Notes under the pieces: model-generated
What the model was told of the DNA's origin: nothing
The model's input: only the letters and a program-made list of their open reading frames with translations
Database searches by the model: none
Shown: positions 951 to 59,972 of the stretch, piece by piece
Numbering within the stretch: the first letter of the stretch is position 1
Layout of the letters: every line of letters starts with the position of its first letter
Translations under genes and position numbers: made by a program
Assembly: GCF_032118995.1 (NCBI RefSeq)
Contig: NC_092661.1
Location: 19,526,621 to 19,590,620 of the forward strand
Direction: 5' to 3'
Origin: Asterias amurensis
Lineage: Eukaryota
DNA: 64,000 nt

Positions 951-1336
951 TAAAGACAGTGGACACTATTGGTAAATGTCAAAGACTAGCCTTCACAGTT
1001 GGTGTATCTCAACATATGCATAAAATAACAAACCTGTGAAAATTTGAGCTCAATTGGTCGTCGAATTTGCGAGATAATAATGAAAGAAAAAAACACCCTT
1101 GTCACACGAAGTTGTGTGCTTTCTGATGCTTGATTTCGAGACCTCAAATTCTAAACTTGAGGTCTCAAAATCAAATTTGTGGAAAATTACTTCTTTCTCG
1201 AAAACTACGTCACTTCAGAGGGAGCTGTTTCTCACAATGTTTTATACCATCTATCTCTCCCCATTACTTGTAATCAAGACAGATTTTATGATGATAAAAA
1301 TTTTGAGTAATAACCAATAGTGTCTACTGCCTTTAA
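951..1336 (+). mobile_element. 385-bp TTAA-flanked MITE (family M1), full copy
   Basis: TIR TTAAAG(A/G)CAGTGGACACTATTGGTAA...TTACCAATAGTGTC(T/C)ACTGCCTTTAA, with an internal perfect hairpin GATTTCGAGACCTCA...TGAGGTCTC(G/A)AAATC. Seven related copies lie in the window. Confidence 0.8.
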
Positions 1337-2304
1337 ACAACATTGGTTTCCTTGAATAATCCAAACTCACTACGTTAAATTATATCGGGTCGGGTTTGCA
1401 AAAAAGGAATAATTGGAAAACCTAATTTTAGACCATGGAAAGCTAATTATTCCTCTAATTACAACACCCAAACATCAACGTCATAGGAACCGCCCATTTT
1501 GGTATCTGCTTTATAGACAATGGACATAAAACTGCCTCGTACCCAGTTTATTGTCGTTAATTTTGCCGTACAATGGAACACAGAATGTATGAAGATTGTT
1601 TTCATCGGTTTTTGTTCTCAGTCGATACACGTCATTTAGCCAGCAATTTATTAATAACAAGTTGGCAATGCGACCACGGTTGTTTTGCTAGCGACTGTAG
1701 TTTGTTGATATTTGCACATGGTTTGGCCTCGTAGCCAGGCTGGTGGCTAAACAGTGACCTTATCGTTCACTTAACTGTGACCAGAATAACTGTTGTTACC
1801 AAATGACCGTAATAGGAATATTATTTTCATCAAACATTCACAATAGGTCGACAATTGTTCACATACAAAAAGTTCTGAATCAACTGTCATCGATTGTTGA
1901 TGTTGTCACATAGTGGAGCCTTGGTACGGTTACTATTGGTGACCTTACAGGGTACGCGACTGTGTCCAACAGACTATTTCTAAATGGCCCATCTTTTTGA
2001 TAGGCAGAGGGCATCTCTTTAGTTGTTTTGATATGCAGAATGCATACGTTTAATCAGTCTACTGTAATATACAAGGTTCGCCTATGATATAAATTAATGA
2101 GGCTTATTTGTAATGATGTATTGCAGGGTGGAAAAGGGAGAGGCTCCTTAGGGACAAAGCAACGCGACGAAGCGGCCATGACCACGTCAGACTACTTGAT
2201 ATCACTGCTGAGAGTTTGACGCAGTGAGGACGTGTTATCCTCATCAGCTTAGATCTACCGTGCATTGCCCACCGTCATACCGCTCAAGCAACAGCAGTGT
2301 CAAA

Positions 2305-2520
2305 ATGGCAACCTGTACCCTAAGAACAATGTTATTATCTCTCCTAATGATGATAATTGTCTTAACCCGAATGACTTCTGCACTAGTGGTGCCCTTGACT
2401 GTAAATGGAGAATGCCCAATCCACACTGTGCGAACTTTAGATGGAAACAATTGTATGTCATGTGCGTCTTGCTATTCGGACTACTCACCGCAGGATTGGC
2501 TTTGCATGAACTGCACACAA
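2305..2520 (+). CDS. candidate first exon of a secreted Cys-rich protein (unassigned)
   Basis: AAAATGG Kozak-like start. MATCTLRTMLLSLLMMIIVLTRMTSALVVP is a plausible signal peptide, followed by 8 Cys in 40 aa (CPIHTVRTLDGNNCMSCASCYSDYSPQDWLCMNCTQ) and the donor GTAAAT. No downstream exons found. Confidence 0.25.
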
Positions 2521-2585
2521 GGTAAATATTAGTTTCTAACAGTGTACGATATAATGTGTGTGACAGTTATTAATTTGCGTTTTTA

Positions 2586-2880
2586 CCCATACACCGATGT
2601 GTGTTAGCACTGTATACTCAGTACTTTCCCGAGTCCTGTGAAAAAATCTCACAGGTATGTTACTCGGGTGGGATTCGAACCCACGACCCTTGCAATTCTA
2701 GAGCAGTGTCTTACCTACTAGACTACCGAGGTTGCCCGGCAGCTAGAGGCAGTTCGAATCCTATGTTTTGGCAGCGGGTACTGCAACGATATAATAGATG
2801 TTAAATTTGCATCGGGGATAAAGAATATTAATTTTGGTTTTTACCCATACACCGATGTGTGTTAGCACTGTATACTGTGA
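2586..2880 (-). mobile_element. tRNA-derived SINE family S1, about 1.3 tandem/rearranged units
   Basis: tRNA-like core GGGTTCGAATCCCACCCGAGTA (T-arm) and D-arm-like GTCTAGTAGGTAAGAC on the - strand. Its tail repeat TTTTACCCATACACCGATGTGTGTTAGCACTGTATACT occurs at both ends. Confidence 0.65.
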
Positions 2881-5800: not shown

Positions 5801-8715
5801 CAATAGGAGTGAATCTTCATTCTTCCTAAAAGCTCACTTGAAATCTACGTGTTAAACAGGAACAACTTCACCCAAACCCTTTTTAAGCATATAGAATGAT
5901 TAGTTGGATTTTGATTGGTATCAAGTTTTGCTTATCCCTAGATGTTTTAGTTGCTGTGTTTTTGACGTAGACATGCCTTGTTGAAAATTGACATTATATA
6001 TTTTCTACGTATGTATATACTTCTGCCCTGCATGCATGAAGCATGCACACACGTCTTGACTATTTTTGACATGAGTTGTTATGAAAGCACGGTCAGCGCT
6101 GGATTTAATCCCAATTCACGCTATTGCATATGACCCTTTCGCAGCTATAACTATACCGTGGCCCAGACCTGATTCCAACGCTAATTTTATTATCATCTTT
6201 GATTCGGAATCTATCACAGTTGCCCAAGGTTATTATTATTTTCATTTTGACTCCTTTTTTTGCCTAGCGCGCCCCGTCCATCATCGCTTCATGTTCACTG
6301 TTCACCTTATTTTCCCCACCGCTCTGCCTAATTCTTTGAGAATGCCATTTATAACAACCTCCCCTCCAGTCGCCCTTAAAGGAACACAATGTGTTTGTTT
6401 GATTCATGGTAACTTCACAGAAAGGTCATTACTTTAAAAAGAAGAAATTGTACTGGCGCCTTGTTTAGTTTAATTTGTTGTAAGAAATGGCATCATGCCT
6501 TTTCAATTAACCTGTTGTTATATAGATCCTGAATAATATAAACAACGAATGCTCGCTGCAGTAAACAGTGTGCGCCATATGCGTTTAAATGTCTCATGCT
6601 GATAATCTCAAATTATGGATACCGATTTATGTTCACAGATTGGGTATAACAGAGTTTTGTTTCACCTTTTTCTGTTCTATAATCCAGTGGGTTGTCAAAC
6701 AAGTCCTGTAAGAGATCCTCAATAGACCAGGTAACCTTTTAGCAGCTTGGAAGTATAAGATAAGACACTTGAGTAACACTCAAGTCTCAGCCAGACGCAA
6801 CTCTTCATTGGCGGTTAATATTGCTAGCGAATTTACCTTGAAGGGCAGAGGGTTTAGACGGCCGCCTCAAGCCTGATGGCAATTTCAAGGTTCAAATGTG
6901 AAATCACTTGATGATGTGCAAGGAGTTTGACAGGCGAGATTATTAACAATCGGTCACTGTTGTCATTGGGAGATAGCTAGTTTTTCCACTTCAGGGATAT
7001 TTCTGATTTTCAACTAGCAATATTATGTAGGCTATATGCATAGCATAAGCAATGTATGAAAGTGTCTTTATTGTAAGTGATCATGACGTTGATTTTGATT
7101 TTAGAAAGCACTACAAACAAATAAACGCAAGGTGAATGCGCAAGCGTGGTTTTGATTTATAAGCGTTATAATTTCCCACAGGATTTAACAGATAAAAAAC
7201 TACCATTTCATAATCCAGCACCTAGCATGCCATGAGGTAATAATGCCATCTTTTAGAGGCTCCGTCCATGATTATAGCCAGCTTAGCCCAAATGCCAAAG
7301 CTGGGTTTTAAAGAAGTTCGTCGTCTTCTTTGAAATTGATCTTCATCCTGTCTGTTTCGTCTCTCATATTAAAAACATATCTTATCTTTCAGCGGCAAGG
7401 GTATCAGAACCTGTTACCGCGCGGATGAGGTCCCTCTTCTTTGAAAACACTCATGGCAAGACTGTAACTCAACACTCAAGCAACATTAAAACCCTGTCTC
7501 TCGTAGAGCTTCTTCATGTTTCACGGCTTAAGGGACCCAAACTCTCTCCCTGTCTTCAAAATGAAAGCTTTTGGCTCTAGTATTATAGAGACTATTAGTT
7601 TCAGCTCTCAGGAAACGAAGTGAGACTTCGGCTTTAATTTCCTGGGCAGGGGACACTCTCTACTGTAGTTGTGGTAATGACACAACCGCTGGGCAATATT
7701 AACACTGGGGCCAGAAATAACCGGTTATTACATCGCACGGTTCATAAATTATTGTAGAGAAAGTCATCGCTGAAGTGTGAGTCGGTCCAAGTGAAAGAGA
7801 TCTACAAATATAGTGTTTTTCTTTAAGTAAACTAAAGGACGCTGTTTTTTTGGCCTTCCGAAACAACTATTTCCATTCGGGTATATTAAATTCGAATAAT
7901 GTAATTTCATGATATAGGTCAACAGGTTGCTTTACTGTAAAGATCGCGACAATTCCAGTTACGTTATTTAATATATTGAATATCCATCACTGTGAACTCA
8001 TAGTGTTAAATTTCCCCTTTATCTGATGGTTGCAGAACTAATATTAAATATTGTTTGGCTGGAAGGTTAGATTAACAAAACAGTTATTGTGTAAAAACAG
8101 AAACTGTTTGGTAACTATTTGTATCCATTATTAAAACATGATCATCTCATAAAAGATGAGCATGGGTTCGTGTAAGTCTCACAGACGTCACCAAACATTA
8201 ATATTGATGTGTTTTCTTGTAGACGCAAGATCAGTGAGCAAAGAGTGATGGGGGAAAACATATAGTGATTCCCCCTCCCTCCCCCTTCTTCCTACTACAT
8301 CACCCGAGAGTCAATAACATACTAATGTTACAGTCTATATGGACACATATTGGTGGTATCACATTTAGTGCTATGGTTAGAATTTGAGTTGTATTATTAT
8401 GTACGAGGCAAGCGTTTGGATATTGGATATTGAGCTCCGGGGAAAGCCATTGATATTACCCATATAGCAAGGTTTGACGTCTTTATGGCGTGAGGGCAAG
8501 GGCAAAGAAGAACCATTGGCTCAAATTAAATTACAACCAAAGATATGATTAACATTACGACCTGTTCACTCAAAGGGCACGAAGTACTTGTATTTTCTAT
8601 ACAGTCACAATTGTTTCTCAGCCAGATGTTTAAATCAAAATCATAGTTTAAATCAATTTGGTTGGTTGACTTCAATCAATAACAGCCAATGATATGTACG
8701 CCGGTTATGATATCC

Positions 8716-9104
8716 TTAAAGGAACACGTTGCCTTGGATCGGACGAGTTGGTCAAAACAAAAGCGTTTGTAACCGTTTTTTATAAAATGCAAATGGTTGG
8801 AAAGATGTTTTAAAAGTAGAATACAATGATCCACACAAGTTGCCTCGAAATTGCGTGGTTTTCCTTCTACTAAGCGAACTAACATGGTCGGCCATTTATG
8901 GGAGTCAAAATTTTGACCCCCATTAATGGCCGACGTGTTAGTTGACAAGTTAAAAGGAAAACCACGCAATTTCGAGGCATGTTTGTGTGGATCATTGTAT
9001 TCTACTTTTACAACATCTTTCTACCCATATGCATTTTATAAAAAACGGTTACAAACGCTTTTCAAAGACCAACTCGACCGATCCAAGGCAACGTGTTCCT
9101 TTAA
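8716..9104. mobile_element. foldback MITE family A: ~390-bp near-perfect palindrome
   Basis: Arms of about 190 bp are reverse complements of each other (TTAAAGGAACACGTTGCCTTGGATCGG...CCGATCCAAGGCAACGTGTTCCTTTAA), with centre near 8908. Confidence 0.8.
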
Positions 9105-26098: not shown

Positions 26099-26490
26099 TT
26101 AAAGGAACACGTTGCCTTGGATCGGTTGAGTTGGTCTTTGAAAAGCGTATGTAACCGTTTGTTATAGAATGCATATACATGTACATGTAATTATAAAGAT
26201 AGTGGAATATAATGATCCACACAAGTTTCACTCAAAGTTGCGTGGTTTTCCGTTTACTTTGTCGACAAACACGGTCGGCCATTTATGGAAGTCAATTTTT
26301 TTACTCTCATGAATGGCTGACCATGTTAGTTCGCAAAGTCAAACGAAACGCAGGCAATTTTGAGGCAAATGTGTGTGGATCATTGCATTCTACTTATACA
26401 ACATCTTTCTACCCATATGCATTTTATAACAAATGGTTACAAATGCTTTTCATAGACCAACTCGACCAATCCAAGGCAACATGTTCATAA
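26099..26490. mobile_element. foldback MITE family A, second copy
   Basis: Same palindromic element with the same termini, about 85% identical to the 8716 copy. Confidence 0.8.
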
Positions 26491-27276
26491 TCTGTAACAT
26501 TTCTGCTTCCAAAGGTCCTATGCTGTACCTTCCTTTAAACATTGTTTCTTCCTAGTTGACTATCACTGTAACGTGAACATAAATGCACAACGTAAACTGT
26601 AACAAATTTAAATTTCCAGCAAGTATTTGTTTCAGTAAGTAAATAAAAATGCCTTTGCTTTTATTAAATGATATATGCCAGAGTGTTGCTTAAATTTGTT
26701 ATAGATTATATTTAAGCCCAAAAATATGATGGGTTCCTGAAGTGACAATATGCTTTCTACTTGGAATGAGATAGAAACATAAAATCATTTGATGCCGAGA
26801 AAACAATTATTTAGAATACCTTTTAGAAAACTGTCGGAGTTTTCTCATGTTCCATGCAGGTTGATGCAACCAGTTCAAAACCACATTACATTTATAGGGG
26901 CAGGGAATTGGCCCGAACTTGAAAAAGACCTTTAAGGTTTGCTTTAATTTGCTCATGCAATTACAAGAGTTAAAAAGAAACAATAAGATAGCAATGTGCT
27001 TAAATTGGGTTGTTTTTGTCAATGGCTTGGGAGGGAGGAGGGGGTGGGGGTTGAAACACAGCCTGATACTTCACAGAGAGGCTAACTGAGCCAAACTGCC
27101 TTGATGCCCCTAGAACTTTACATTTCACAGAAGAGCCCTTAACGATGTTTAACTGCCTTGATATTTACCAGAATGAGTATCAGGTCGGCCAACAACCTCA
27201 TCCTTAAATTAAGAAAAAGACAAGAAAGAAACTTGATGACACCATCTTTGTCAGTATTTCAACCGTGAACTGGCTT

Positions 27277-28746: not shown

Positions 28747-29131
28747 TTAAAGGCAGTTGACACTATTGGTAATAACTCAAAATATTATTAGCATAAAACC
28801 TTTCTCGGTGACGAGTAATGGGGTGAGGTTGGTGGTATAAAACATTGTGAGAAACAGCTCTCTCTGAAGTGAGGTAGTTTTTGAGAAAGAAGTAGTTTTC
28901 CACGAATTTGATTTCAAGACCTCAGATTTAGAACTTGAGGTCTCAAAATCAACCATCTAAACGCACACAACTTCATGTGACTTGGGTGTTTTTTTCTTTC
29001 ATTTTTATCTCGCAAGTTCAACGACCGATTGAGCTCAAAGTTTCACAGGTTTGTTATTTTATGCATATGTTGAGATACACCAACTGTGAAGGCTAGTCTT
29101 ATACAATTACCAATAGTGTCCACTGCCTTTA
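28747..29131 (-). mobile_element. MITE family M1, full copy (in RPL24 intron 4)
   Basis: Same TIRs and central hairpin as the other M1 copies; inverted orientation. Confidence 0.8.
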
Positions 29132-29228
29132 ACCGTTACAAAAAAGTACCCCAAAGTGCCGCAAAATGCATAACCTGTTGCGATCATGGTGTACACAATT
29201 CTTTGAACCAACACTGCTTTGATCTTAC

Positions 29229-34320: not shown

Positions 34321-35439
34321 GTAGACTGACGTCCGTCTGCTGATTGGTCCGCTCCTATGAGCACTCTTTCTCGAAAAAAAAAATGACAGAAGGCAGGAAT
34401 CAATTTCACTAGTACTATATTAATGTGTACCTTCTAGCCAACCTCGTTGGGCTGATGGTGCTCTTCTTTTCGGTCTTGCCTTGGAGCTACCTCAATGGGG
34501 GTAGATTCTACCTCCACATACAGGCAGAGTCCATGTTCTCACTATGGAGCTATCACAGAGCCATATAGAACAGCATAGACCCAGTAACTGGGGCGCTGTA
34601 CTCCTTTTCGAATTTTTACATTATCGGTCATATCGAAAATGTCAAAATTTTGAAAAAGGAATACAGCCCCCAGTTACTGGGTCTTATAACAGCACATTGT
34701 TGGAACAAGGTGGTGGGCCCATGACTTTTATTTCTAGCCCTGTTTAGGATAGGAGCAAAAAACTAAAAAGTGAGCACCTGCCAGGAGTAAAATTTAGCGG
34801 AATAAAGTTTATTGAAACAAAGTAATAAATCAAAGTGCTTTTAGACCCTCATTTTTAAGATTGTTTTATTTCAGAGTAAATACAAATATTTCCCAGCACT
34901 GAACTTTGTATGACATTTCAAAAAAGTGTATAAAATATTCCTTTAAAGGTTATTAAATAAAATTTACTTGGCAAGGTATAAAACATTATTTCAGATAAAA
35001 TAGTTAATAAAACAACTAACTATTTTTATGTCATTCTGAGACAAGATCATAAAACCTTGGTGCTATGCTTTTCACAGTAAATCAATCAATCTATATGCCT
35101 ACAATAGTAGAGTACAATCAATTAAGTTTCTTGCAGTAACACTATAAATCAAGATTACTTCTCCAATAGTCGATAGGCAAACTCCTTTCAGTTGTTATGT
35201 TGAGTGCAAACTTTAAACCTGCTCAAGGTCAAAGCGAGTTGTGGTGTTACTTCATTACGCTCACTGAACTTTAGTTTTTGACTGAAAACTCTTAAAGTTA
35301 CCTGGTAGTGGTATTTTTTCCAAATAAAGCTTTTGCCACTAATATATGTGTTTTGATGAGTGGAATGTGAATAAACAGTCAACTAAGGTTTTAAAAAATC
35401 AGTTCTTATGTTATTTACAAATTTAGGAGTAGACCCCCC

Positions 35440-35735
35440 GACCCAAGAGGGCGCTGTTCGTGACGTCATTCGAGGCAGACTTTGCCAGTAATGCGTAGAG
35501 TAAACACAATTGCAAAGTACATGTACGGACCAAGTCGTGAGTTTGTACGTTTAAAAAACTTTAAAAAATTGTTTTTTTCCAGCAATGCCGACCAGGTGTA
35601 TTGGTGCTGAATCTAGAAAAACACTTTTTGGAATGTACCAACTCACGACTTGGACGTACATGTACTTTGCACGTGTGTTTACTATACACATTGCAGGCAA
35701 AGTCTGCCTCGATTGACGTCACAAAAGGGGTAGGC
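35440..35735. repeat. palindrome C: about 90-bp inverted arms, each ending in TGACGTCA
   Basis: GTGACGTCATTCGAGGCAGACTTTGCC...GTCGTGAGTTTG is mirrored by CCAACTCACGAC...GGCAAAGTCTGCCTCGATTGACGTCAC. Confidence 0.7.
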
Positions 35736-35932
35736 GGAGTCAGCCCCAAAAAAACTTTATATATTTTTTAAACATAAATCGTGACAAACAATTACTGAAA
35801 AAATTGTTTTATTGTTCGTAAGCATATACCCTTATGTTTGAAAGAAAAAAAATTCTATTTCCAGGTGACTTTAATTTCTTTCAGTTATTTCAGAGTAAGA
35901 ATCATTATGTTACACTTCTCAACTAAATAATG

Positions 35933-41526: not shown

Positions 41527-41730
41527 AGACACTGGACACTATTGGTAATTGCCAAAGACCAGTCTTCTCACTTGGTGAATCTCAACATATGCATAAAATA
41601 ACAAACCTGTGAAAGTTTGAGCTCAATCGGTCATCAAAGTTGGGAGATTATGATGAAAGAAAAAACACCTTTTGCACACGAAGCTGTGTGCTTTCAGATG
41701 CTTGATTTCGAGACCTCATAATCGAATCCA
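41527..41730 (+). mobile_element. MITE family M1, 5' half copy (in an intron of the K/R-rich gene)
   Basis: Matches the left half of M1 up to the central hairpin. Confidence 0.6.
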
Positions 41731-43411: not shown

Positions 43412-43477
43412 GTAAGTAATAATAACATCCCTAAAACAGTGCAATTCCAAAGATATGGTTGTTGTTCTTTAAAAGCA

Positions 43478-43636
43478 CGGGACACTATTGTTAATTACTC
43501 AAAATAATTGTTACCATAAAAACTTACTTGGTAACAAGCAATTGAGAGCTGTTGATAGTATAAAACATTGTGAGAAACGGCTCCCATTAAAGTAATACAG
43601 CATAGTTTTTGAGAAAGAAGTATTTTTGTATTGTTG
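43478..43636 (-). mobile_element. MITE family M1, partial copy
   Basis: Matches the right arm of M1 (GGACACTATTGTTAATTACTCAAAATAATTGTTACC...). Confidence 0.5.
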
Positions 43637-45574: not shown

Positions 45575-45960
45575 TTAAAGACATTGGACACTATTGGTAA
45601 TTGTCAAGGACCAGTCTTCTCACTTGTTGTATCTCAACATATGCATAAAATAACCAACCTGTGAAAATTTGAGCTCAATTGGTCGTCGAAGTTGTGAGAT
45701 AACTATGAAAGAAAAAACACCCTTGTCACACGAAGTTGTGTGCTTTCAGATGCTTGATTTCGAGACCTCAAATTCTAAACTTGAGGTCTCGAAATCAAAT
45801 TCATGGAAAACTACTTCTTTCTCGAAAACTACTTCACTTCAGAGGGAGCCGTTTCTCACAATGTTTTATACTATCAACCTCTCCCCGTTACTCGTTACCA
45901 AGTGAGGTTTTATGCTGCTAATTATTTTGAGTAATTACCAATAGTGTCCACTGCCTTTAA
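45575..45960 (+). mobile_element. MITE family M1, full copy
   Basis: Both TIRs with flanking TTAA. Confidence 0.8.
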
Positions 45961-49944: not shown

Positions 49945-50309
49945 CTGAAAATTGAAAACAGTTTCAGATGACAGAATCTCTAAAGATAATAAAATAAAGA
50001 CAATGGCTACAAAATACTAATCCTGGAGAAAATGAAATGTAAAAGGATTTTGTCTTCACACAAAACTGAAAATAATCCCAAAATCTGTTGATAAAGAAAC
50101 CAAGTAGAGGGTGGTCTACCAATAGATCACAGGAATGGAGTTTTGATTATCCAACTGTCATTGGACAATTGGTTTGTTTGTTAGTTTCAAATAAGCCAAT
50201 CACTGAGAAGATGAGCCAACACTTTGGCAGTTTCCATGTTTTGTTTTCTTCCTATTGGCTAACTGATGTTTCAAAAGATGTCTTATTTAAAATAAAAAAA
50301 GTGTTAAAC

Positions 50310-50477
50310 CTTCTTCCCAGGGGTGCCAAGCTGATGGTGTGATGTCACCCTTTGCCACCGTGGTAACTCCTGATACCACTGCATGGTGTCCACTCCAAGC
50401 AATCCAAATACCCTGTTAAGGGAGGGTACCAGTTGACGTGTCAAGTAGTAGGTTGTGTTCAATCTTAGGCTCGGATC
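50310..50477 (-). CDS. REV3L: REV3L exon
   Basis: DPSLRLNTTYYLTRQLVPSLNRVFGLLGVDTMQWYQELPRWQRVTSHHQLGTPGKK matches human DPTLRLNATYYITKQILPPLARIFSLIGIDVFSWYHELPR. Confidence 0.85.
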
Positions 50478-50746
50478 CTTAGAAAATAAAAACAACAAAC
50501 TCTGATGAACTAAATTTATTAAATTGTGCCATAATAAATAACTCAAAACTTTTGTGGGCATCGGATGTTAAATCTTTCCACAACAAAAAAGTGACAAGAC
50601 AAGAAAACTTAGTGAAACAAAGTTATAGAAAAGTTAAGAAAACTTCCTGAAAAATGAAGACAAAGTATATTAAGACTGCTGCAAACTACATGCAATGGTT
50701 GAAACACACATTGGTCACAACCACATTTACTCATCATTGATTTTAC

Positions 50747-50873
50747 CTCAAGAACTTGACTTGGAGTGCGTACAAGCTGAATAAGAGGCAATCCAGGACT
50801 GCCGTACACAACAACATAAGGCACTCTCTGACCAACTCGAGGCTCTGCACGACGATCAACGGCAAGTAGACGT
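50747..50873 (-). CDS. REV3L: REV3L exon
   Basis: (R)RLLAVDRRAEPRVGQRVPYVVVYGSPGLPLIQLVRTPSQVLE matches human KMLTYDRRSEPQVGERVPYVIIYGTPGVPLIQLVRRPVEVLQ. Confidence 0.85.
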
Positions 50874-51381
50874 CTAATTCAAATTAGAAGAAAAAAAAAT
50901 GGATAAAACAATTACTCTAATGATTCAGGCATATCTGCCCAACTACAAGATTTTCAATATACTAATGCTTAATATTAATTCTTTAGCATTTCAATTTTAA
51001 TCTCATTAAACAAATTCTGCTCTATTAAAAATTTTTAGCTGCCAGCCCTGCCCTCTTGTGGCTTTCCCCCAATTCTGACCTGTGAGTATCAGCTGGAAAT
51101 GGCAAAGTATACATCACAATTATACAGTTTATGTACTCTTTGGAATGGTATAAAGTTTTTGGGATGTGTTTATTTACAATGCAGTAAACAATGAATGTTT
51201 ATCATAGAGTACTACATAGGCTTAGGTAGGAACGGCACTTAGTGCCATGGCCAGTCAGGTGGAATAATGAAAAAAAAAAATTATTTACAACTTTTGCAAA
51301 ATCCCATCATTAGCCTTACTGCCATTGGCATTGTGTCTAAATCAGAATTCCTTCTTCAGAATATGAAGTAATAATCCGCAC

Positions 51382-51572
51382 CTTGTGATTTCAAGGGATG
51401 GTACACAAGCCCCCGGTCGATAGGAGTGCTGACCACGGTACTCCTTGGCAAATATCAGGTCTTGCATTGTTGCTTGGCCATCAAGGATCTTCAAGAACTG
51501 CTTCTGAACGTACTTCTTGACTTGTGAGACATCATGTGTGGTGAAGAGAGTCTTCAGAGCTTTCTCAAGTAT
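51382..51572 (-). CDS. REV3L: REV3L exon
   Basis: ILEKALKTLFTTHDVSQVKKYVQKQFLKILDGQATMQDLIFAKEYRGQHSYRPGACVPSLEIT matches human ILEKSLRLLFETRDISLIKQYVQRQCMKLLEGKASIQDFIFAKEYRGSFSYKPGACVPALELT. Confidence 0.9.
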
Positions 51573-52006
51573 CTATGAACAATTGGACCAAATTTATTAC
51601 CAATTGATCTTCAACATAGTTTATGTACTTGTTAAAAGATTTCAAAACGAAAGTTTGACAAATCTTGAGAGAATAAAAGCTTAATTGAAAGAGCATTTAT
51701 CATTATTTATTTATTTCTGAAAATAATACCAAAAGAACCCTTGAAAGTGCAATGTAGCACATTGGCCTGGCCTACCCGAATTTTCGATGTAAGAAGAAAA
51801 GCCTAACAGAAAAAAACCAGCCGAATGTGGAAGGAACTAAAAACCCAATCCACACACCAAAGGGGATGTGTGCCACAAAGGTCAAAGGCATAGAAGAAAC
51901 AACTAAGCTGACCTGTATGCATTTATAAAAACTATTAAAGTCTCATTCAATAAGTTTGTAGTTTCATTCGCTCTGGCAATATTTATCAAGACAAATCTCC
52001 TGTTAC

Positions 52007-52144
52007 CTTGCCAACAGCAGGGCATGAATCTCGACGCACTGTTTCAATTCCCTTAGCATCAAAGTCTGGTTCTGATTGGTCAGGAGACTCGTAGCTATAA
52101 CCAACATAACGCTTCTTGGATTGTAGGACACATGGATGGTAAAC
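52007..52144 (-). CDS. REV3L: REV3L exon (polymerase motif C region)
   Basis: VYHPCVLQSKKRYVGYSYESPDQSEPDFDAKGIETVRRDSCPAVGK matches human VYQPCVLQTKKRYVGYMYETLDQKDPVFDAKGIETVRRDSCPAVSK. Confidence 0.9.
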
Positions 52145-52358
52145 CTGCAAAACAACAACAAAAGAGAACAATGTACTTTCAGTATTTGACTACATAAAGC
52201 TGTCATTGTCAAGAACCAAATTTTATTCCAAATTGTAAAGTTCCAGTTTTTGTTTCATTGACTTCTAGAATACAGCGTTTATTAGATTAAGAGAGGAAAC
52301 TGGATGCCAGTGTTGAACCCTGACAATCTAAAATGAAGGCACGGGTATTTCAACTTAC

Positions 52359-52473
52359 CTTTTCCAGTTTCAGTTTGACAGGTTTAGGGTTCGCTGCAGT
52401 CACAGCATCTCGGATTTCTCGACCAACTTCAAAGGCTCGCTCCTTACTGGCTCCTTCAACTAACACAAACATA
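52359..52473 (-). CDS. REV3L: REV3L exon
   Basis: (S)MFVLVEGASKERAFEVGREIRDAVTAANPKPVKLKLEK matches human MFVLLKGATKEQSFKIGQEIAEAVTATNPKPVKLKFEK. Confidence 0.9.
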
Positions 52474-53085
52474 CTGAGGACAAATACAAGAGATTTTTTT
52501 TCCTTAAAATCAATCCAATGCCTTTGAAAAGGCAAGTTAATTCAAGAGAATTCACTGAAAATCTTCAGGCTAACAGCAACTGTAAACTTCTTCAACTATG
52601 ACTACAGAGGGAGTAAAACAGAAGAGTGACTCTGATACAATACACTCTTTCCCTTGCCTTGGAGAAAAACTATTTTTACATCAAACTTAAAGTTACAACA
52701 ATTTTCTTTGAAGTCAAATGGGTCCACTCTTACAGCAACAGCTTGCACGCTACTTCGATAAGTGCAAACATACTGCACTAAAAGAATAAATACAAGATAC
52801 TTATAAAATAACAAAAGGTCCATTTTGAAATAGGGCTTGTTTTTAACCTTGCATGGTGGGAATACAATCTAGAAAAGTTTGCAGAGACACCATGTACGTA
52901 AAGTCTCTGTGTGAGTTGTTGTGGTTATGAGAAGAACTGGTAGTTTACCAAGTTGTTAAAACTCTAGTTCTTCTCAGAGATCCACCACAACTCAAAAAGA
53001 GGTTTTATGTACTGTACAAGGTGTCTCTGCAAACCACACTAGTTTAAGAAACTGCTTATAACTTCAGAATGTCTCCAAAACCAAC

Positions 53086-53195
53086 CTGTCTGTGTCCCCA
53101 TACACTACTCTAGCTCCCCATTTCTTGGTTGTTTCTACAAGATGTATGGCTCTCTCCAACGTCTCACGCCCCTTCCGTACAACACTGTCACCAAC
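53086..53195 (-). CDS. REV3L: REV3L exon (contains YGDTDS catalytic motif)
   Basis: VGDSVVRKGRETLERAIHLVETTKKWGARVVYGDTD(S), the family-B polymerase motif C. Confidence 0.9.
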
Positions 53196-53513
53196 CTGCA
53201 AGAAATAATCAGTAAATCTGACAAACTGTCTTCAACCAAAAATAAGGCAGTCATTAGTTGAAACAATCAAAGGTGATTTGCCTACACATTGGCAGAAATG
53301 GACACAGATTGATTCAGGAATACTCAGTATGCATACTTCAGCGATGGAATAAAGTGCATGCTGGTCTAGTTAGTGACAAAGTTTGGTTGCTTGGTAGACC
53401 AGCATTCCCCTCATTCCACAGCAATGCGGGCACGCCAAGAAAATGTGAAGTAGTCTTTGGGAGATAGTTGGGTAATATTTTTACAAAGAAATTTAAATGA
53501 ATCTTGAATCTAC

Positions 53514-53621
53514 CTCAATACAAGGCATCCGTCCAGAGAAGCTAGCTGATGTATATCCATAGGTGAAGTTAGCGATATATTTAAGGGCAAGCTGACGACT
53601 ATTCAACATACGATTCAATGC
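53514..53621 (-). CDS. REV3L: REV3L exon (motif A/B region)
   Basis: ALNRMLNSRQLALKYIANFTYGYTSASFSGRMPCIE matches human ALSRMLDARQLGLKLIANVTFGYTSANFSGRMPCIE. Confidence 0.9.
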
Positions 53622-53871
53622 CTGTGGGAAAAGAAAGAAAAATTTAAAAGTACTCTAATACTAAAAACTACAAGGAAAGCATTAATCTCATCCTGTTGCC
53701 ATTTAGAGGTAAAACGATGCAAAAAATGATGCAAATTATTGGAAATACCCAGCAGACGCGCAGCGCACAGAATGGACCAAAAAGTAACTGCCTTTTGGCC
53801 TCTATGAGGGCGCCCTACTGCAGTGACATCTTGCATTAAGTCTATTTTACAAATGAAGACATTCGTAATAC

Positions 53872-53941
53872 CTTGTTATCCTTAAAGTCCTTCAGCGCTT
53901 TCTTGACAATTAGACGAAGATTTAGAATCTGTTCCAACATC
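53872..53941 (-). CDS. REV3L: REV3L exon
   Basis: (T)MLEQILNLRLIVKKALKDFKDNK matches human RMLEEILKTRFMVKQSMKAYKQDR. Confidence 0.8.
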
Positions 53942-54415
53942 CTGAAATAAATTGTAAAACTGGTATTTATATACACTCCTCATGAATCTGTTGACGAAGA
54001 TAAACATGCTGTGATAAGGTCTTCGTCTAAAGGATCTTATGAGCGGAAGCCCGCGAAAATGAAATCGCTGGAAGGTGCCATTTTGGTAATATTATGTAAG
54101 AGAGATAAAGTTAAACTAAACAAGTCTATTTAGACTGCGGCATTTGCAATAGTTCATGACTGTCACAATTGATAATCACATCCAATTTGGCCTGTAGGCC
54201 ATGAAATGTGATGCTAGGATTTCATTGTTCAATAGACTGTGCATGTCTCACACTTTGGTCCCACACACATTGCTTTATTGTGCAAACTCCAGTATTGTAA
54301 CAGGTCCCAACGTTAGAATAAGTGTGAGACTTGCAGTCTATAAGACATTTTGATTCATTGAGAAACAGCCGCTTTTGAAACCTTTAGGTAGTAGAAACAC
54401 AAGATGTGAACTTAC

Positions 54416-54559
54416 GTTGGGACTACACCACGCCTGATATGAGACTTGACAAACACAATACCATTAGGGGATATATGAAGACCATCTGACTGTAGAAGCT
54501 TCTTGAATTGACTTATGGAATTAGATAAAGTACCACATCCCATAGCATATTCACCACCA
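54416..54559 (-). CDS. REV3L: REV3L exon
   Basis: (N)GGEYAMGCGTLSNSISQFKKLLQSDGLHISPNGIVFVKSHIRRGVVP matches human ...ITVSPNGVAFVKPSVRKGVLP. Donor GTAAGT. Confidence 0.8.
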
Positions 54560-55209
54560 CTGAAAATAAACACAACACAATTTAACAATCAAGACAATCA
54601 TTTCATACTATGAAACACATCTTTACTCAATGGTAAAAAATTCCAAAACTTAATAGTATTTGGAAACACAAAGTACAATCGCATCAACCACATTTCAAAA
54701 GCGTTATTCAGATTAGAAAGCCCAAATGAAGTGTATTGATACCTATGCAATCAATGGTTAACCAATGTTTAAACAATTGTAACCAGTGGTTTATGGTTAA
54801 AGGAACGTTACAGAATTGGTAAGAAACAAAAATCGTGAAGATTACAGATTAACATAAAACTTACACAGTCTAATGATGATAGTTGAAAACATCCCTTAAA
54901 ATATTTCTGTCTGAAATGTCATATTTGATGAGAAATAAGTAATCTAACTTCGTGTTTGGAGTTTATCGCTCAGTGAGCGTTTTATTAATTTTTATTTTGG
55001 CATCGATGCAATGCAAAATTTGTAATCGGTTTTTCACTATTCTCTCATGACCCAGACGGCTGATCGATCTCAAACTTCTACAGGTTTGTCAGTTTATGTA
55101 CATGGTGGATTACATAAAGTGCTTACACTGCCAGCAATTGTTTTGTTAGCAAAAACCAATTCTGTAATGTTCGTTTAATGCAATAGCCGTAGTCAACTAA
55201 TGGTCTCAC

Positions 55210-55371
55210 TTTGCAATGTGTTCTAAGCGGCCAAGACAAGTTGAGTAGCAGTAGTTATATGCAATCATCATTGAAGGATACAGAGACTGGAAGTCTAAAA
55301 CAATAACTGGATCTTTATAGAAACGAGATTCTGGCTCCATCACCAAAGGAATGCACTCCGGAGCTTTCATT
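55210..55371 (-). CDS. REV3L: REV3L exon (SLYPS motif A)
   Basis: (R)[53 protein letters not shown] matches human [50 protein letters not shown]. Confidence 0.9.
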
Positions 55372-56003
55372 CTGCAAAGAAAATATCACAATTTCACGGT
55401 TAAAATAAATTCCTTGGGTAACCAGGAGTGGAAGATTTGCAGAAAAAAATATCTGGAAATAGTATCAAAATTGTAGGTATGTTGTAATGATTGCATTTCA
55501 GGCATTTTTATACCGCCGAGTCGTTAGAATTCAAGGTAATTTGGGGAAAAGTATACTTATAACAGCACAAGAAAAGTGGTTCAAAGCGAATGGTTTCTTC
55601 ATATCTGTAAAAAATAACAGCTTTATTTTTCCACCAGGCAAAACTGAAAATGTTTTTAACTTAAATATATTCCTTATTTTATATATGAAGAATACTTCAA
55701 GGTTGTGTATGCATTGTAGGAACTCTATCTTACAAATGTGAGCTTTTTTTTTATCCACTAATTATTAGTAATTTTGTCAAACAGTAAATTGAGATTGCTG
55801 TGTTTTTCCACAATGCTGTTCATCCAATTTAAGTCCAGTATCATTATTTATCAAACTTCTCAGTTCAATCAAATTTCTTAATCAAATCACTTTTAAAAAG
55901 TTCATAATGTGGAATATAAGGTTGATAAGCAAAACTCATTTTTCTTAAGATCTTTTCTAGTTTTGATGTTGACAACTTATTCCACCTGGAAGGTTTTACA
56001 TAC

Positions 56004-56086
56004 CTAGATCTTTGCTGTACACTGGGCGACATGGCAACGTAATTCTGTGGTTTTGCTGTTCTCATCATCATAGACTCCACACGATA
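56004..56086 (-). CDS. REV3L: REV3L exon
   Basis: YRVESMMMRTAKPQNYVAMSPSVQQRS matches human YRVESMMLRIAKPMNYIPVTPSVQQRSQ. Donor GTATGT. Confidence 0.85.
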
Positions 56087-56569
56087 CTGTCAATGAAGAA
56101 GAAGTATCTGATTGTAATAACTTATAACAAACCTTCTTTTCTTTTTATCAAAGCAGTTGTTATTATAAGTAATCACACAAGCGCGAGTGGAATACGGACA
56201 AAATATAGCACTTCTGCGTCCCATATCCAACCAGGCCGAATATCTTCCAGTTTCTCAGACGTCAATGCGCAGAACGTTATTTTGCGACGAAGCGCACAAA
56301 GTTTAGAATGTAATTTTTGCTCTGTATCTGTATACAGAGCGTGATGCATTGACATTCACAATACGCACTGTGTAATAAAAACAGAGGAAGTAGGATATAA
56401 AACAGAGGAATTAGTATACAGTATATATGTTTTTATCCCCCTAATAGTTCGAGCATCTGATTGGTGGATTAGTGCGTACTGGAAGATAACATTTGATACA
56501 GAGAAACAATGTAGACACACAAGAAATGGTTAAATGCAATCTCTAGTTGAATCAAATGTACTTTAGTAC

Positions 56570-56711
56570 CTGAGATCCTCTTGACAGGACACAGTAAAAC
56601 TGAATCCCAAACACACGAGCGAGTTCACTAGTTCGTCCAATCAGATCTAACTGATGAAGAAGCTTCAGAGAGCCACGCACACGCACTGTGTAGTACTCCA
56701 TCACTCGCCAC
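56570..56711 (-). CDS. REV3L: REV3L exon
   Basis: (R)WRVMEYYTVRVRGSLKLLHQLDLIGRTSELARVFGIQFYCVLSRGSQ matches human WKMVDHYVSRVRGNLQMLEQLDLIGKTSEMARLFGIQFLHVLTRGSQ. Confidence 0.9.
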
Positions 56712-56757
56712 CTTAATAAAACAAATCATCAGCAAAAAAAACATCAATATACATTGG

Positions 56758-56990
56758 AGTGTTGTGGCCGAGCGGTTTAGTGTATCGAACTCGAGTTCTG
56801 ATGTGTAAACCATCAGAATGTGGGTTTGAATCCTGGTCAATACAAATGTAGAATTGCTTCTCTTCACCCAGAGATAAATGGGTACCTATGAGGGCAGAGA
56901 TTGTTCTTGTGATTGATTTAGCTTAGTGCGCTATATATTTGATAGCAAAGGCTGTATACTCCCAAGAGAGCTGAGATGGTTTTAGAAAAC
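56758..56990 (+). mobile_element. SINE family S2 (head GTTGTGGCCGAGCGGTTTAG...GGGTTTGAATCC)
   Basis: tRNA-Ser-like head followed by a body related to the 44275 copy. Confidence 0.55.
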
Positions 56991-57200
56991 TGAAATAAAT
57001 GGCACAGTGACCAAGGGTAATAATGATACACACAAACTCCATATCACACTTTAAAACAATCTTGAGGAAGTGTGAATTCAAAATGAAAGTTGTTTCATAA
57101 ATGGCAAGGAATTTAAAATGTATCAAAGGAAGAATGTTTGATAACAGAAATGATTTGAACAAGGATTTTAAACATTTTTGAATGAGAGTAATCAACTGAC

Positions 57201-57322
57201 CTGTAGAGTTGTGGATTCTTGTGATCAAACCAGTCAGTCAGTGTACGATATGAGAACAGAGGAATGCGCTGATGTAAAACATGGAAAGCAATATTCTCAA
57301 ATGTGTAGTTGGTTAAGGCCAC
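57201..57322 (-). CDS. REV3L: REV3L exon
   Basis: VALTNYTFENIAFHVLHQRIPLFSYRTLTDWFDHKNPQLY matches human VALTNYTFENVSFHVLHQRFPLFTFRVLSDWFDNKTDLYR. Confidence 0.9.
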
Positions 57323-57359
57323 CTGAAGAATAGAAATACACAAGAAAGATGCATCAAAC

Positions 57360-57749
57360 TTAAAGGCAGTGGACACTATTGGTAATTACTCAAATAATTA
57401 TTAGCATAAAACCTTACTTGGTAATGAGTAATAGGGAGCTGTTGATAGTACAAAACATTGTGAGAAATGGCTCCCTCTGAAGTAACATAGTTTTTAGGTG
57501 AAAGAAGTAATCTTCCACGAATTTGATTTCGAGACCTCAGAACTATATTTTGGGGTCTCAAAATCAAACATCTGAAAGCACACAACTTCAGTCGACATGG
57601 GTGTTTTTCCTTTCATTATTATCTCGCAACTTCAACGACCAATTGAGCTCAACTTTTCACAGGTTTGTTATTTTATGCAAATGTTGAGATACAGCAAGTG
57701 AGAAGACTGGTCTTTGACAATTACCAATACTGTCCAGCATCAGTCTTAA
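57360..57749 (-). mobile_element. MITE family M1, full copy (REV3L intron)
   Basis: TIRs plus central hairpin. Confidence 0.8.
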
Positions 57750-57912
57750 TGGAGCACAGTTATAAAATACTGACATCACAACTGAATACAATTTTGGGCT
57801 TTACAAAACAGTGGAAAAATAACCTTGCACAAATTTGAATGAAAGCCTAATGAGCACTGCAATGATTCTGCTCAACTACTTTGTGAGTAGTATTGAGTAG
57901 TTTGAGTGTTAC

Positions 57913-58031
57913 CTCGTGTCTCATAAGTCTCCAGAGATTGAGCGTTATGCGACCAGCGATGTTGATTTCTGATTGGTGATCTGCTCCGTAGGCGTCACGC
58001 TCAGATGCAAAATGGCTCTCCTTCTTAAACT
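57913..58031 (-). CDS. REV3L: REV3L exon (exonuclease-like domain)
   Basis: (E)FKKESHFASERDAYGADHQSEINIAGRITLNLWRLMRHE matches human DDKIENRFAAERDEYGSYTMSEINIVGRITLNLWRIMRNE. Confidence 0.85.
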
Positions 58032-58139
58032 CTGAAACAATAAAAATAAACTCAGTCTTACTTCAGGTCATGGCAACAAGATAAAATTGACAGCATTAAT
58101 TTAAATGATTTTTGGGGTTGAACAAAGAAAAATTTACTA

Positions 58140-58212
58140 TAGTGGGATTTGAACCAACGACCTCTGGATTAACGTGCCGGCGCTCTACTAACTGAGCTAT
58201 CTAGCCCTATGT
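58140..58212 (-). pseudogene. tRNA-Asn(GTT)-like pseudogene or SINE head remnant
   Basis: The - strand reads GGGCTAGATAGCTCAGTTAGTAGAGCGCCGGCACGTTAATCCAGAGGTCGTTGGTTCAAATCCCAC. The D-arm and T-arm are canonical, but the acceptor stem cannot pair. Confidence 0.4.
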
Positions 58213-58327
58213 TAGCGGTCTCCCTATTGACAATATCTTTGTTCAGGGGTGCAAACAATTTACCCAGTCAGTTTCCCTTGTGGTTTATATTGATAGCATT
58301 AATTTAACTTGGAGGAAGAATTCTCAC

Positions 58328-58443
58328 CAGGAAGTCTTGAGATTTGAGTACAGAGATCAACGTCAAGAAAAGCTGCTCTTTCCAAGAGGTAGCCCCAAGA
58401 ATGCTGCTGGATCTCATAACCAACCAAGATATCTGGATCATAT
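58328..58443 (-). CDS. REV3L: REV3L exon
   Basis: (K)YDPDILVGYEIQQHSWGYLLERAAFLDVDLCTQISRLP matches human YDPDILLGYEIQMHSWGYLLQRAAALSIDLCRMISRVP. Confidence 0.9.
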
Positions 58444-58737
58444 CTACAAAGAAATAACTCATGTTTAACTACCCTGTGCTGAATCAAATACATGTCAAAA
58501 ATTATCTTAGAGAAATTTGAAGCTTTCACATGTCAGCTTTTTGAGTTGTACATGTATTTTGCTTACATTTACAAACACTGAAAATTGTTATTTCCCTTCA
58601 TAAACATAGTGAGTTGCAAAAACGATAGGCACTTGCCACCATTGCCCCCACGAACACAAAATATAAACAAAAAATTATTACCAAAACATGGTTTACGATA
58701 CTTCATATAACAAAACTGAACAATGATCTAGACTTAC

Positions 58738-58915
58738 TTCCTGATAACACACAGAATCTGATCCAGTAGTTCAGCCTCGGATGCTACTGATGTAATCTTG
58801 GTATCATTCAAACCACTATGTGCAAGATGTGATGATAGATGACATGAGGTTGATGGTCCTGCGTTACTATGGTTACTATCATCAACCATGATCACACCGT
58901 GAAACATATTTAGAT
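58738..58915 (-). CDS. REV3L: REV3L exon
   Basis: (D)LNMFHGVIMVDDSNHSNAGPSTSCHLSSHLAHSGLNDTKITSVASEAELLDQILCVIR(K). A weakly conserved linker, in phase with the flanking exons. Acceptor tattAG, donor GTAAGT. Confidence 0.65.
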
Positions 58916-59147
58916 CTAATAACAAAGGAATATCAAAAATATAACTTTGAAAATAATTTTTTAAATTCCAATAATGTTGCTTTGATAAGAAAGTTTGTCA
59001 AAACTGTTTTCCTTAGAGAAAAATAAAGTATGAAAATAAAATAAAAGGGACTAAACTGGATTCATGCTTCTTAAGAATGGGTAGGTAAAGTGAACAAAAT
59101 AATGCAAATAATCAGCAAGTGCTGTTTTTCTAATTGAGACACACAAG

Positions 59148-59363
59148 AGATGTTAAATTTGCATCGGGATAAAGAATATTAATTTTGGCTTTTACCCATA
59201 CACTGATGTGTGTTAGCACTGTATACTCAGTACTTTCCCCGAGTCCTGTGAAAAAATATCACAGGCTTGTTACTCGGGTGGGATTCGAACCCACGACCCT
59301 TGCAATTCTAGAGCAGTGTCTTACCAACTAGACTATCAAGGTTGCCCGGTAGCTAGAGGCAGT
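59148..59363 (-). mobile_element. SINE S1, full copy (REV3L intron)
   Basis: Tail plus tRNA-like head; about 90% identical to the 2586 and 60292 copies. Confidence 0.75.
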
Positions 59364-59591
59364 TCACACACACAATTCACATTACGTATTCCACCGTCTG
59401 CTAAGAACTGACTCTTAGATAATCCATCTCCTTAAATAAAAATTGTTTTATTTAAGGCAAGCTGGTCTGTTTTTACATGAAAGGCATTAGGTCTTAGCTG
59501 CTCAACCCTTGCAAATTATAAGGCTTGGAATTCAAACTATGAGAGGCCAATACTGATTTCGTTCACAAAGGGTACTTCCAATGGAAAAACT

Positions 59592-59972
59592 TTAAAGGCA
59601 GTGGACACTATTGGTAATTGTCAAAGACTAGCCTTCACAGTTGTTGTATCTCAACATAAGCAGAAAATAAACCTGTGAAATTTTGAGCTCAATCGGTCAT
59701 CGAAGTTGCGAGATAATAATGAAAGAAAAATAACCCTTCTCACACGAAGTTGTGTGCGTTTAGATGGTTGATTTCGAGACCTCAAGTTCTAAATCTGAGG
59801 TCTCGAAATCAAATTCGTGGAAAATTACTTCTTTCACAAAAACTATGGCACTTCAGAGGGAGCCATTTTTCACAATGTTTTTACCATCAACCTCTCCCCA
59901 TTACTCGTCACCAAGAAAGGTTTTATGCTAATAATAATTTTGAGTAATTACCAATAGTGTCCACTGCCTTTA
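59592..59972 (+). mobile_element. MITE family M1, full copy (REV3L intron)
   Basis: TIRs plus central hairpin; flanked by TTAA. Confidence 0.8.

What the first reader, a model, noticed from the sequence alone, without database searches (positions are those of the whole stretch)
951..59972. A 385-bp MITE and a ~390-bp foldback MITE share TTAAAGG...CCTTTAA termini: a piggyBac-type mobilisation signature
All five full M1 copies (951, 28747, 45575, 57360, 59592) are bounded by TTAA on both sides with termini AGGCAGTGGACAC. The unrelated foldback family A (8716, 26099) starts TTAAAGGAACACG and ends CGTGTTCCTTTAA. TTAA target duplication with short G-rich termini is diagnostic of piggyBac-superfamily transposases. 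Two sequence-unrelated non-autonomous families with the same end architecture suggest a single active or recently active piggyBac-like transposase in this genome. No transposase ORF is present in the window.
Basis: partly seen in the sequence, partly recalled or inferred. Interest (0 to 1): 0.55.

Follow-up and report, generated by a model that had tools for sequence, protein, structure and literature searches.

The report
Kolobok-type TTAA MITEs, sea star genome
The repeats are real small non-coding transposons that sit in TTAA sites of what is probably a sea-star genome, but their ends (TTAA|AGG...) match the Kolobok transposon superfamily rather than piggyBac, so this is an ordinary find.

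Summary
The window carries five full and two partial copies of a 386-bp MITE (M1) and two copies of a 389-bp foldback MITE (A). Homology stops exactly at a TTAA on each intact end.

I found two more TTAA-flanked families in the window: R2 at 54797-55178 and C at 35292-35874. Eleven marine-metagenome contigs also carry M1 copies, with the same termini, TTAA flanks and unrelated DNA beyond.

The interpretation needs correcting. TTAA duplication is not unique to piggyBac; Kolobok makes it too. Published surveys find that piggyBac TIRs always start with C (CCY). Kolobok termini are 5'-RR...YY-3', and Xenopus T2-MITEs read TTAA|AGGRR. Every family here starts AG or AA, and A and R2 read TTAA|AGGAAC.

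I fetched seven loci encoding Kolobok-type transposases. The three with recognisable TIRs all begin TTAA|AGGG(G)AAC.

No transposase is present in the window. M1 copies lie 5-10% from their consensus, so recent activity is not shown. The M1 terminus occurs in a published Asterias rubens transcript, so the host is probably a sea star.

Verdict: new members of a known kind, T2-like Kolobok MITEs. Interest is low. The autonomous partner and an empty site could not be reached.

The parts
950..1336 (+). M1 MITE, full copy; TTAA|AGACAGTGGACAC … GTCTACTGCCT|TTAA
   Evidence: 7.3% from consensus
28747..29132 (-). M1 MITE, full copy in reverse orientation; TTAA on both sides
45575..45960 (+). M1 MITE, full copy; TTAA on both sides; closest to consensus (4.7%)
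57360..57749 (-). M1 MITE, full length but with small indels in the far terminus; TTAA kept at 57746-57749; lies in an intron of a B-family DNA polymerase gene
59592..59973 (+). M1 MITE, full copy with perfect 28-bp TIRs; TTAA on both sides; lies between two inverted tRNA-derived SINE copies
41527..41726 (+). M1 5' half (about 200 bp); flanking TTAA mutated
43463..43627 (-). diverged M1 3' part (77-83% identity)
8716..9104 (.). family A foldback MITE; two arms 87% complementary over the whole length; TTAA|AGGAACACGTTGCC at both ends
26099..26538 (.). family A copy 2 (82% to copy 1 up to 26486); 3' terminus interrupted by about 46 bp, with CCTTTAA at 26532-26538
54797..55178 (+). family R2 MITE (not in the finding); TTAA|AGGAACGTTACAGAATTGGTAAG … TTAA; TIR matches the M1 TIR at 15 of 23 positions; copies in L003 and L005 are also TTAA-flanked
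35292..35874 (+). family C element (not in the finding); TTAA|AGTTACCTGG … CCAGGTGACT|TTAA, with an internal 270-bp foldback at 35457-35725; a second copy end is in L006
6376..6395 (+). solitary family-A-like terminus TTAAAGGAACACAATG, with no matching partner end found

Best explanation
M1, A, R2 and C are non-autonomous cut-and-paste DNA transposons (MITEs) of the Kolobok superfamily, of the T2-like kind first described in Xenopus. They lie in the genome of a marine animal that is most likely a sea star.

Inferred mechanism: a Kolobok DDD/E transposase encoded elsewhere in the genome binds the terminal inverted repeats, excises the element and inserts it at a TTAA. The TTAA is duplicated, so every copy reads TTAA|AG…CT|TTAA.

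Shown here:
- the copies, their TIRs and the invariant TTAA at the limit of homology;
- the purine-purine (AG/AA) termini;
- the same TTAA|AGG(G)AAC ends on elements that do encode a Kolobok transposase;
- the lack of a transposase in the window.

Inferred: that TTAA is a duplication rather than part of the element, that the mobilising enzyme is a Kolobok one, and that it is or was present in this genome. The copies seen are old (5-10% from consensus), so current activity is not implied.
For: (1) TTAA at every end of the five full M1 copies in the window, with flanks unrelated beyond it. M1 copies on 11 independent marine-metagenome contigs show TTAA at 13 of 15 readable ends.

(2) All families start with RR after TTAA: M1 AGGCAG/AGACAC, A AGGAAC, R2 AGGAAC, C AGTTAC/AGTCAC, and M2 (on L006) AAACAT/AAGCCA.

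(3) Literature: Kolobok makes TTAA TSDs and, unlike piggyBac, has 5'-RR…YY-3' termini (PMC9587614). T2-MITEs are defined by TTAA + AGGRR (PMC6004289). Full-length Xenopus Kolobok elements end AGGACATG…, AGGAGAAG… and similar, flanked by TTAA.

(4) Direct check: a profile of six Kolobok transposase cores found 307 proteins. Of seven encoding loci fetched, three have clear TIRs bracketing the transposase. In two of them (L020, L021) the bracketed gene set is THAP + transposase + P2RX7_C (KolX). All three begin exactly TTAA|AGGGAACC… or TTAA|AGGGGAAC… (L020, L021, L023).

(5) The Kolobok superfamily is reported in Asteroidea (PMC9587614). The M1 terminus occurs in a published Asterias rubens transcript (PMC4792854).
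Against: No autonomous element with M1, A, R2 or C termini was found. There is none in the window, nor in the 11 metagenome loci, nor in scans of viral or prokaryotic genome contigs.

No empty site was available, so duplication of TTAA is inferred.

M1's fourth base is C (AGGCA), which departs from the strict T2 motif AGGRR.

The three Kolobok elements with matching ends come from unrelated organisms and share no repeats with the window. Their TIRs match A and R2 only over the first 6-7 bases.

KolobokP LTDRs from the sea star Patiria are unrelated to M1.
Confidence: 0.75

Rival explanations
1. One reading: these are piggyBac-superfamily MITEs, mobilised by a piggyBac transposase that duplicates TTAA.
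For: TTAA lies on both sides of all intact copies. piggyBac is the best-known TTAA-specific superfamily, and piggyBac MITEs exist in marine invertebrates, for example the coral CMITEs (PMC2872659).
Against: piggyBac TIRs begin with C: C[C/A/T][C/A/T] in 157 elements (PMC5381638), or CC[C/T]T. Every family here begins with A. piggyBac TIRs are 12-19 bp, whereas M1's is 24 bp past the TTAA and A is a full-length foldback. TTAACCC is not enriched in the window. The same TTAA|AGG ends were found on Kolobok-encoding elements.
Confidence: 0.08
2. The duplication is only TA (Tc1/mariner or pogo-like, Stowaway-type MITEs). The elements would then be AAGG…CCTT and would insert into the TA of a TTAA context.
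For: The string T-TA-AAGG…CCTT-TA-A is formally compatible. The predicted empty site (TTAA) is identical under both models, so even an empty site would not separate them (my reasoning, noted). The M1-M2 junction on L006 fits both models.
Against: It needs an invariant T before and A after the TA at about 20 independent insertions, which a TTAA duplication explains without extra assumptions. The same ends occur on Kolobok-encoding elements. There is no mariner or pogo coding remnant in the window.
Confidence: 0.05
3. These are MITEs of an undescribed or different TTAA-specific transposase lineage that merely converges on AG termini, or relics whose transposase has been lost from the genome.
For: No autonomous partner was found. 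M1's TIR does not match any Kolobok terminus I could compare beyond the first 3-5 bases. Copies are 5-10% diverged from consensus.
Against: Terminal sequence plus TSD is the accepted basis for classifying non-autonomous DNA transposons (PMC4455052), and both point to Kolobok. Kolobok is widespread in marine invertebrates, including sea stars.
Confidence: 0.12

Closest known systems
Xenopus T2-family MITEs (Xmix and others), non-autonomous Kolobok elements (PMC6004289)
   Same: TTAA target, terminal AGGRR-type motif (A and R2: TTAAAGGAA; M1: TTAAAGGCA/AGACA), several subfamilies with unrelated interiors sharing one end architecture, a few hundred bp in size, no coding capacity.
   Different: The host is a probable sea star, not a frog. 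There is no sequence similarity beyond the first bases. M1's fourth base is C rather than a purine. Family A is a complete foldback.
Kol0-type autonomous Kolobok elements (Kolobok-1_XT type: THAP-transposase plus KolX), as retrieved here in L020, L021 and L023
   Same: TTAA flanks and TIRs starting AGGG(G)AAC, close to A and R2 (AGGAAC). Cut-and-paste DDD/E mechanism assumed.
   Different: They are 4.7-7 kb with 160-225-bp TIRs and coding genes. They come from unrelated organisms, and similarity to the window elements is limited to the first 6-7 bases.
piggyBac-superfamily MITEs (for example coral CMITEs, PMC2872659)
   Same: TTAA on both sides; small non-autonomous TIR elements in a marine invertebrate.
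   Different: piggyBac termini are CCY…RGG with 12-19-bp TIRs. The elements here begin AG/AA and have longer TIRs.
KolobokP long terminal direct repeats (solo LTDR elements) of the sea star Patiria miniata (PMC9587614)
   Same: Kolobok-related non-coding units of a few hundred bp with their own short TIRs, in Asteroidea.
   Different: LTDRs are 428-483 bp, start GGGTGC or GGTAGC, show no strong target preference, and have no sequence match to M1, A or R2.

Membership tests
Kolobok superfamily (T2-like MITEs) | TTAA present on both flanks, at the exact limit of copy-to-copy homology | tested here: met
   10 of 10 ends of full M1 copies in the window and 13 of 15 ends on metagenome contigs. A copy 1, R2 (window, L003, L005) and C (window, L006) also comply.
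Kolobok superfamily (T2-like MITEs) | TTAA is shown to be duplicated on insertion (an empty site holds a single TTAA) | not testable with these tools
   No orthologous, allelic or paralogous empty site was found in the window or in any fetched locus. The only same-species contig (L001) does not span a MITE.
Kolobok superfamily (T2-like MITEs) | Termini 5'-RR…YY-3' (T2: AGGRR) | tested here: met
   AG or AA starts all families. A and R2 fit AGGRR exactly. M1 is AGGCA/AGACA, so RR is met but the strict AGGRR motif is not. Definitions are from PMC9587614 and PMC6004289.
Kolobok superfamily (T2-like MITEs) | The same end architecture occurs on elements that encode a Kolobok transposase | tested here: met
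   L020, L021 and L023 read TTAA|AGGGAACC… or TTAA|AGGGGAAC…, with TIRs bracketing transposase genes that match the Kolobok profile; L020 and L021 also carry THAP and P2RX7_C genes. These are from other organisms, not the host.
Kolobok superfamily (T2-like MITEs) | An autonomous Kolobok element with matching TIRs exists in the same genome | not testable with these tools
   The host genome is not searchable here. The window and 11 related contigs hold none.
Kolobok superfamily (T2-like MITEs) | Repbase rule: terminal positions 1-11 align with a classified member with at most 1 mismatch (PMC4455052) | tested here: inconclusive
   Not met against the few termini available (ten Xenopus elements; three fetched elements). 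Repbase and Dfam themselves could not be searched.
piggyBac superfamily | TTAA target site duplication | tested here: met
   Same evidence as above. This feature does not discriminate piggyBac from Kolobok.
piggyBac superfamily | TIR begins with C (CCY, or C[C/A/T][C/A/T]) | tested here: not met
   All termini begin with A. TTAACCC is not enriched. Criterion from PMC5381638 and PMC2872659.
piggyBac superfamily | Short TIRs of 12-19 bp | tested here: not met
   M1 TIR is 24 bp past the TTAA. A is a 190-bp-arm foldback.
Tc1/mariner (Stowaway-like MITEs) | TA duplication with otherwise variable flanks | tested here: inconclusive
   TA is contained in TTAA, but the outer T and A are invariant at about 20 insertions. 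An empty site would not separate the two models.

The most novel reading that the evidence does not exclude
A sea-star lineage may still carry an active T2-like Kolobok transposase that cross-mobilises several unrelated MITE families. These include a perfect-palindrome foldback (A) and M1, with its conserved internal 17-bp stem. M1 and R2 share a TIR core (ACA.AATTGGTAA) that could be the binding site. If so, this would be a second, non-piggyBac TTAA-specific system open to experiment in an echinoderm.
Probability: 0.1. Interest if true: 0.35.

Novelty: new member of a known kind. Interest (0 to 1): 0.15.

Why it matters
The main value is for annotation. TTAA-flanked MITEs should not be filed under piggyBac by default. 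The first bases of the TIR separate piggyBac (C…) from Kolobok (RR…), and here they point to Kolobok.

These families make up about 6% of this 64-kb window and sit in introns of host genes, so they matter for repeat masking and gene models in sea-star genomes. Nothing here challenges current understanding of transposons.

Tried and rejected
- **Empty sites.** The only same-species contig (L001, 98.3% identical) does not cover a MITE. The related-species contig L002 aligns only in exons. No nested insertion into a repeat with an intact copy was found. The M1-M2 tandem on L006 shares one TTAA but fits both the TTAA and TA models.
- **Autonomous partner by TIR scan.** Viral contigs gave nothing. 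Genome contigs gave nothing for M1 and two chance 18-mers in bacterial MAGs for A (L014, L015).
- **KolobokP.** No M1, A or R2 terminus occurs in the supplementary consensus file. Patiria LTDRs are unrelated.
- **Transposase in the window.** There are no Pfam hits other than host domains. tblastn with nine Kolobok cores gave nothing below E = 0.05.
- **Kolobok transposase loci without usable ends.** L016, L017, L018/L019 and L022 gave no TTAA-bounded TIR pair.
- **Organism by protein search.** The nAChR-like exon hit only unnamed metagenome proteins. The sea-star assignment rests on one literature sequence match.
- **Literature.** A first full-text search for TTAAAGG was too unspecific. The Yuan & Wessler PNAS paper is not held.

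Full report
**What is in the sequence.** The window is animal DNA with 35-42% G+C.
- It holds exons of a neurotransmitter-gated channel at 21.7-24.1 kb on the + strand (Pfam Neur_chan_LBD and Neur_chan_memb).
- It holds a 3-hydroxyacyl-CoA-dehydrogenase-type exon at 37092-37448 on the - strand.
- It holds a B-family DNA polymerase gene on the - strand, running from about 49.8 kb to at least 58.5 kb (DNA_pol_B_exo1 and zf-C4pol).

- Full copies: 950-1336 (+), 28747-29132 (-), 45575-45960 (+), 57360-57749 (-), 59592-59973 (+).
- Partial copies: 41527-41726 and 43463-43627.
- The two minus-strand copies look different in a naive alignment only because they are inverted.
- The TIR is 28 bp including TTAA: TTAAAGGCAGTGGACACTATTGGTAATT.
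- All ten ends of the full copies carry TTAA, and similarity stops there.
- A conserved internal 45-bp palindrome (for example 1130-1174) is present in every copy.

Family A copy 1 (8716-9104) is a near-perfect 389-bp palindrome (dG -182 kcal/mol, z -32.6) ending TTAA|AGGAACACG on both sides. Copy 2 (26099-) has the same 5' end. Its 3' end is interrupted, with CCTTTAA found 46 bp further on.

**More families and more copies.** I scanned for TIR pairs flanked by a given tetramer. TTAA gave 12 pairs, against 0-6 for 19 control tetramers.
- R2 at 54797-55178: TTAA|AGGAACGTTACAGAATTGGTAAG.
- C at 35292-35874: TTAA|AGTTACCTGG.
- There is also a solitary A-like end at 6376.

An exact-pattern scan of public metagenome contigs with the M1 TIR returned 11 contigs from marine samples.
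- All carry M1 copies at 67-92% identity.
- Termini are conserved, TTAA is present at 13 of 15 readable ends, and flanks beyond it are unrelated.
- The same contigs hold further R2 and C copies with TTAA flanks.
- L006 holds a related element (M2, TTAA|AAACATTGGACCC) that abuts M1 through a single shared TTAA.

**Host.**
- A contig from an ENA marine metagenome (ERZ23498486, record SOLA22-1) is 98.3% identical to window 21456-23375, so the same species is in that sample.
- A full-text search for the M1 TIR 14-mer hit one relevant paper. A published Asterias rubens transcript contains TTTAAAGGCAGTGGACACTATTGGTAATTGTCAAAGACTAGC…, which is the first ~85 bp of M1 (PMC4792854).
- The host is therefore most likely a sea star. 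This rests on that single match.

**Which superfamily.** TTAA duplication is not diagnostic of piggyBac.
- PMC6004289 defines the Xenopus T2-MITE family by a TTAA target and a terminal AGGRR motif. It lists ten full-length Kolobok elements ending AGGACATG…, AGGAGAAG…, AGCGATTC… and similar, nearly all with TTAA on both sides.
- For piggyBac, a survey of 157 elements found the first three TIR bases to be C[C/A/T][C/A/T] and TIRs of 12-19 bp (PMC5381638). A coral MITE study gives CC[C/T]T (PMC2872659).
- Every family here starts with A (AGG, AGA, AGT, AAA). A and R2 fit TTAAAGGRR exactly.
- TTAACCC is not enriched in the window: 4 seen, 8.4 expected.

**A direct check of the association.**
This gave 307 hits at E ≤ 1e-10, many from named marine invertebrates and fishes.
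- I fetched seven distinct encoding loci.
- Three have long inverted repeats that bracket the transposase gene; in L020 and L021 these also enclose THAP and P2RX7_C (KolX) genes:
  - L020, 8388-15392: TTAA|AGGGAACCTCCACTC.
  - L021, 8039-13336: TTAA|AGGGGAACTCCTGGG.
  - L023, 8319-13017: TTAA|AGGGGAACACCACTG.
- In all three the repeat begins exactly at TTAA|AGGG(G)AAC. This is the end architecture of families A and R2 (TTAA|AGGAAC).
- The other four loci gave no usable ends.
- These organisms are unrelated to the host and share no repeats with the window. The result shows what Kolobok ends look like. It does not identify the partner of M1.

**Relations among the families.** The M1 and R2 TIRs agree at 15 of 23 ungapped positions (p about 1e-4), with a shared core ACA.AATTGGTAA. 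A shares only AGGAAC with R2 and nothing beyond AGG with M1. One transposase for all families is possible but not shown.

**Age.** M1 copies differ from their 386-bp consensus by 4.7-9.6%, and no near-identical pair exists. The claim of recent activity is unsupported by this window.

**What could not be done.**
- No empty site was reachable.
- A TA duplication inside a TTAA context predicts the same empty site as a TTAA duplication. An empty site alone would therefore not separate those two models.
- The host genome could not be searched for an autonomous partner. The window and related contigs contain no transposase.
- KolobokP LTDRs of the sea star Patiria are unrelated to these elements.

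**Verdict.** The finding is a real and correctly described set of TTAA-flanked MITEs. They are best classified as T2-like non-autonomous Kolobok elements of a probable sea star, not piggyBac derivatives. They are new members of a known kind, and the interest is low.

Noticed in passing
window 2568-2876, 58134-58206, 59145-59365, 60292-60520: A tRNA-derived SINE family of about 220 bp, with copies 92-94% alike. Rfam tRNA hits fall at 2660-2732, 59271-59342, 60313-60385 and 58134-58206. The ARAGORN 'tRNA-Ser(AGA)' at 2659-2732 is most likely a SINE head rather than a tRNA gene. Two inverted copies flank the M1 copy at 59592.
   Followed up: partly
window 22558-22641 versus L001 about 1102-1113: The window has a 73-bp insertion relative to a same-species metagenome contig. 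It is bounded by the direct repeat ATCATT and ends in (ATT)n. This looks like a polymorphic short retroposon-tail insertion, or a deletion between repeats, in an intron of the channel gene. No other copy occurs in the window.
   Followed up: partly
window 15558-16019 (-): An ORF fragment (…YLGVTLDRCLSFKTHV…CPVWE…) that I read as the C-terminal part of a non-LTR retrotransposon reverse transcriptase. Pfam gave no hit at E ≤ 0.01, so this rests on my own recognition of the motif.
   Followed up: partly
window 49771-58532 (-), possibly to 63920: Exons of a B-family DNA polymerase (DNA_pol_B_exo1 at 58302-58532, zf-C4pol at 49771-50016). The long Ser-rich ORFs at 61459-62361 and 62481-63920 may be a large central exon, as in REV3L; that is my guess and they have no Pfam hit. 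M1 copies at 57360 and 59592 and R2 at 54797 lie in its introns.
   Followed up: partly
window 34577-34684, 39735-40085, 43950-44175, 52877-53034: Four further foldback or inverted-repeat elements that are not TTAA-flanked (ends AGACCCAGTAAC, TTTTTTTACTTC, AATGGACCCTTCC, GTTTGCAGAGAC). They presumably belong to other MITE families.
   Followed up: no
window 12453-12594; 17661-18117; 34179-34222: Tandem repeats: 70 bp x 2 (98% matches), 161 bp x 2.8 (82%), and (GGGCGG)7.
   Followed up: no
L006 1-419: An M1 right end and a related MITE (M2, TTAA|AAACATTGGACCC…GGGTCCAATGGCTT|TAAG) lie head to tail and share a single TTAA. This is as expected if one inserted into the other's flanking TTAA.
   Followed up: partly
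L020 7780-8299 and 15782-16003: The complete Kolobok element on L020 is flanked on both sides by copies of another TTAA-bounded MITE (TTAA|GGACGGTGCC, including a foldback at 7819-8090). Its termini also start with two purines.
   Followed up: no
L012 about 430-640 and the Asterias rubens transcript in PMC4792854: A further repeat (…TTTGCAGTAACACCATGTG…GGGAGACTTCTCAGTTC.GAAAAGAA.TGTCCTGCTT…) is shared between metagenome contig L012 and the published A. rubens transcript. This adds support that these contigs are sea-star DNA.
   Followed up: no
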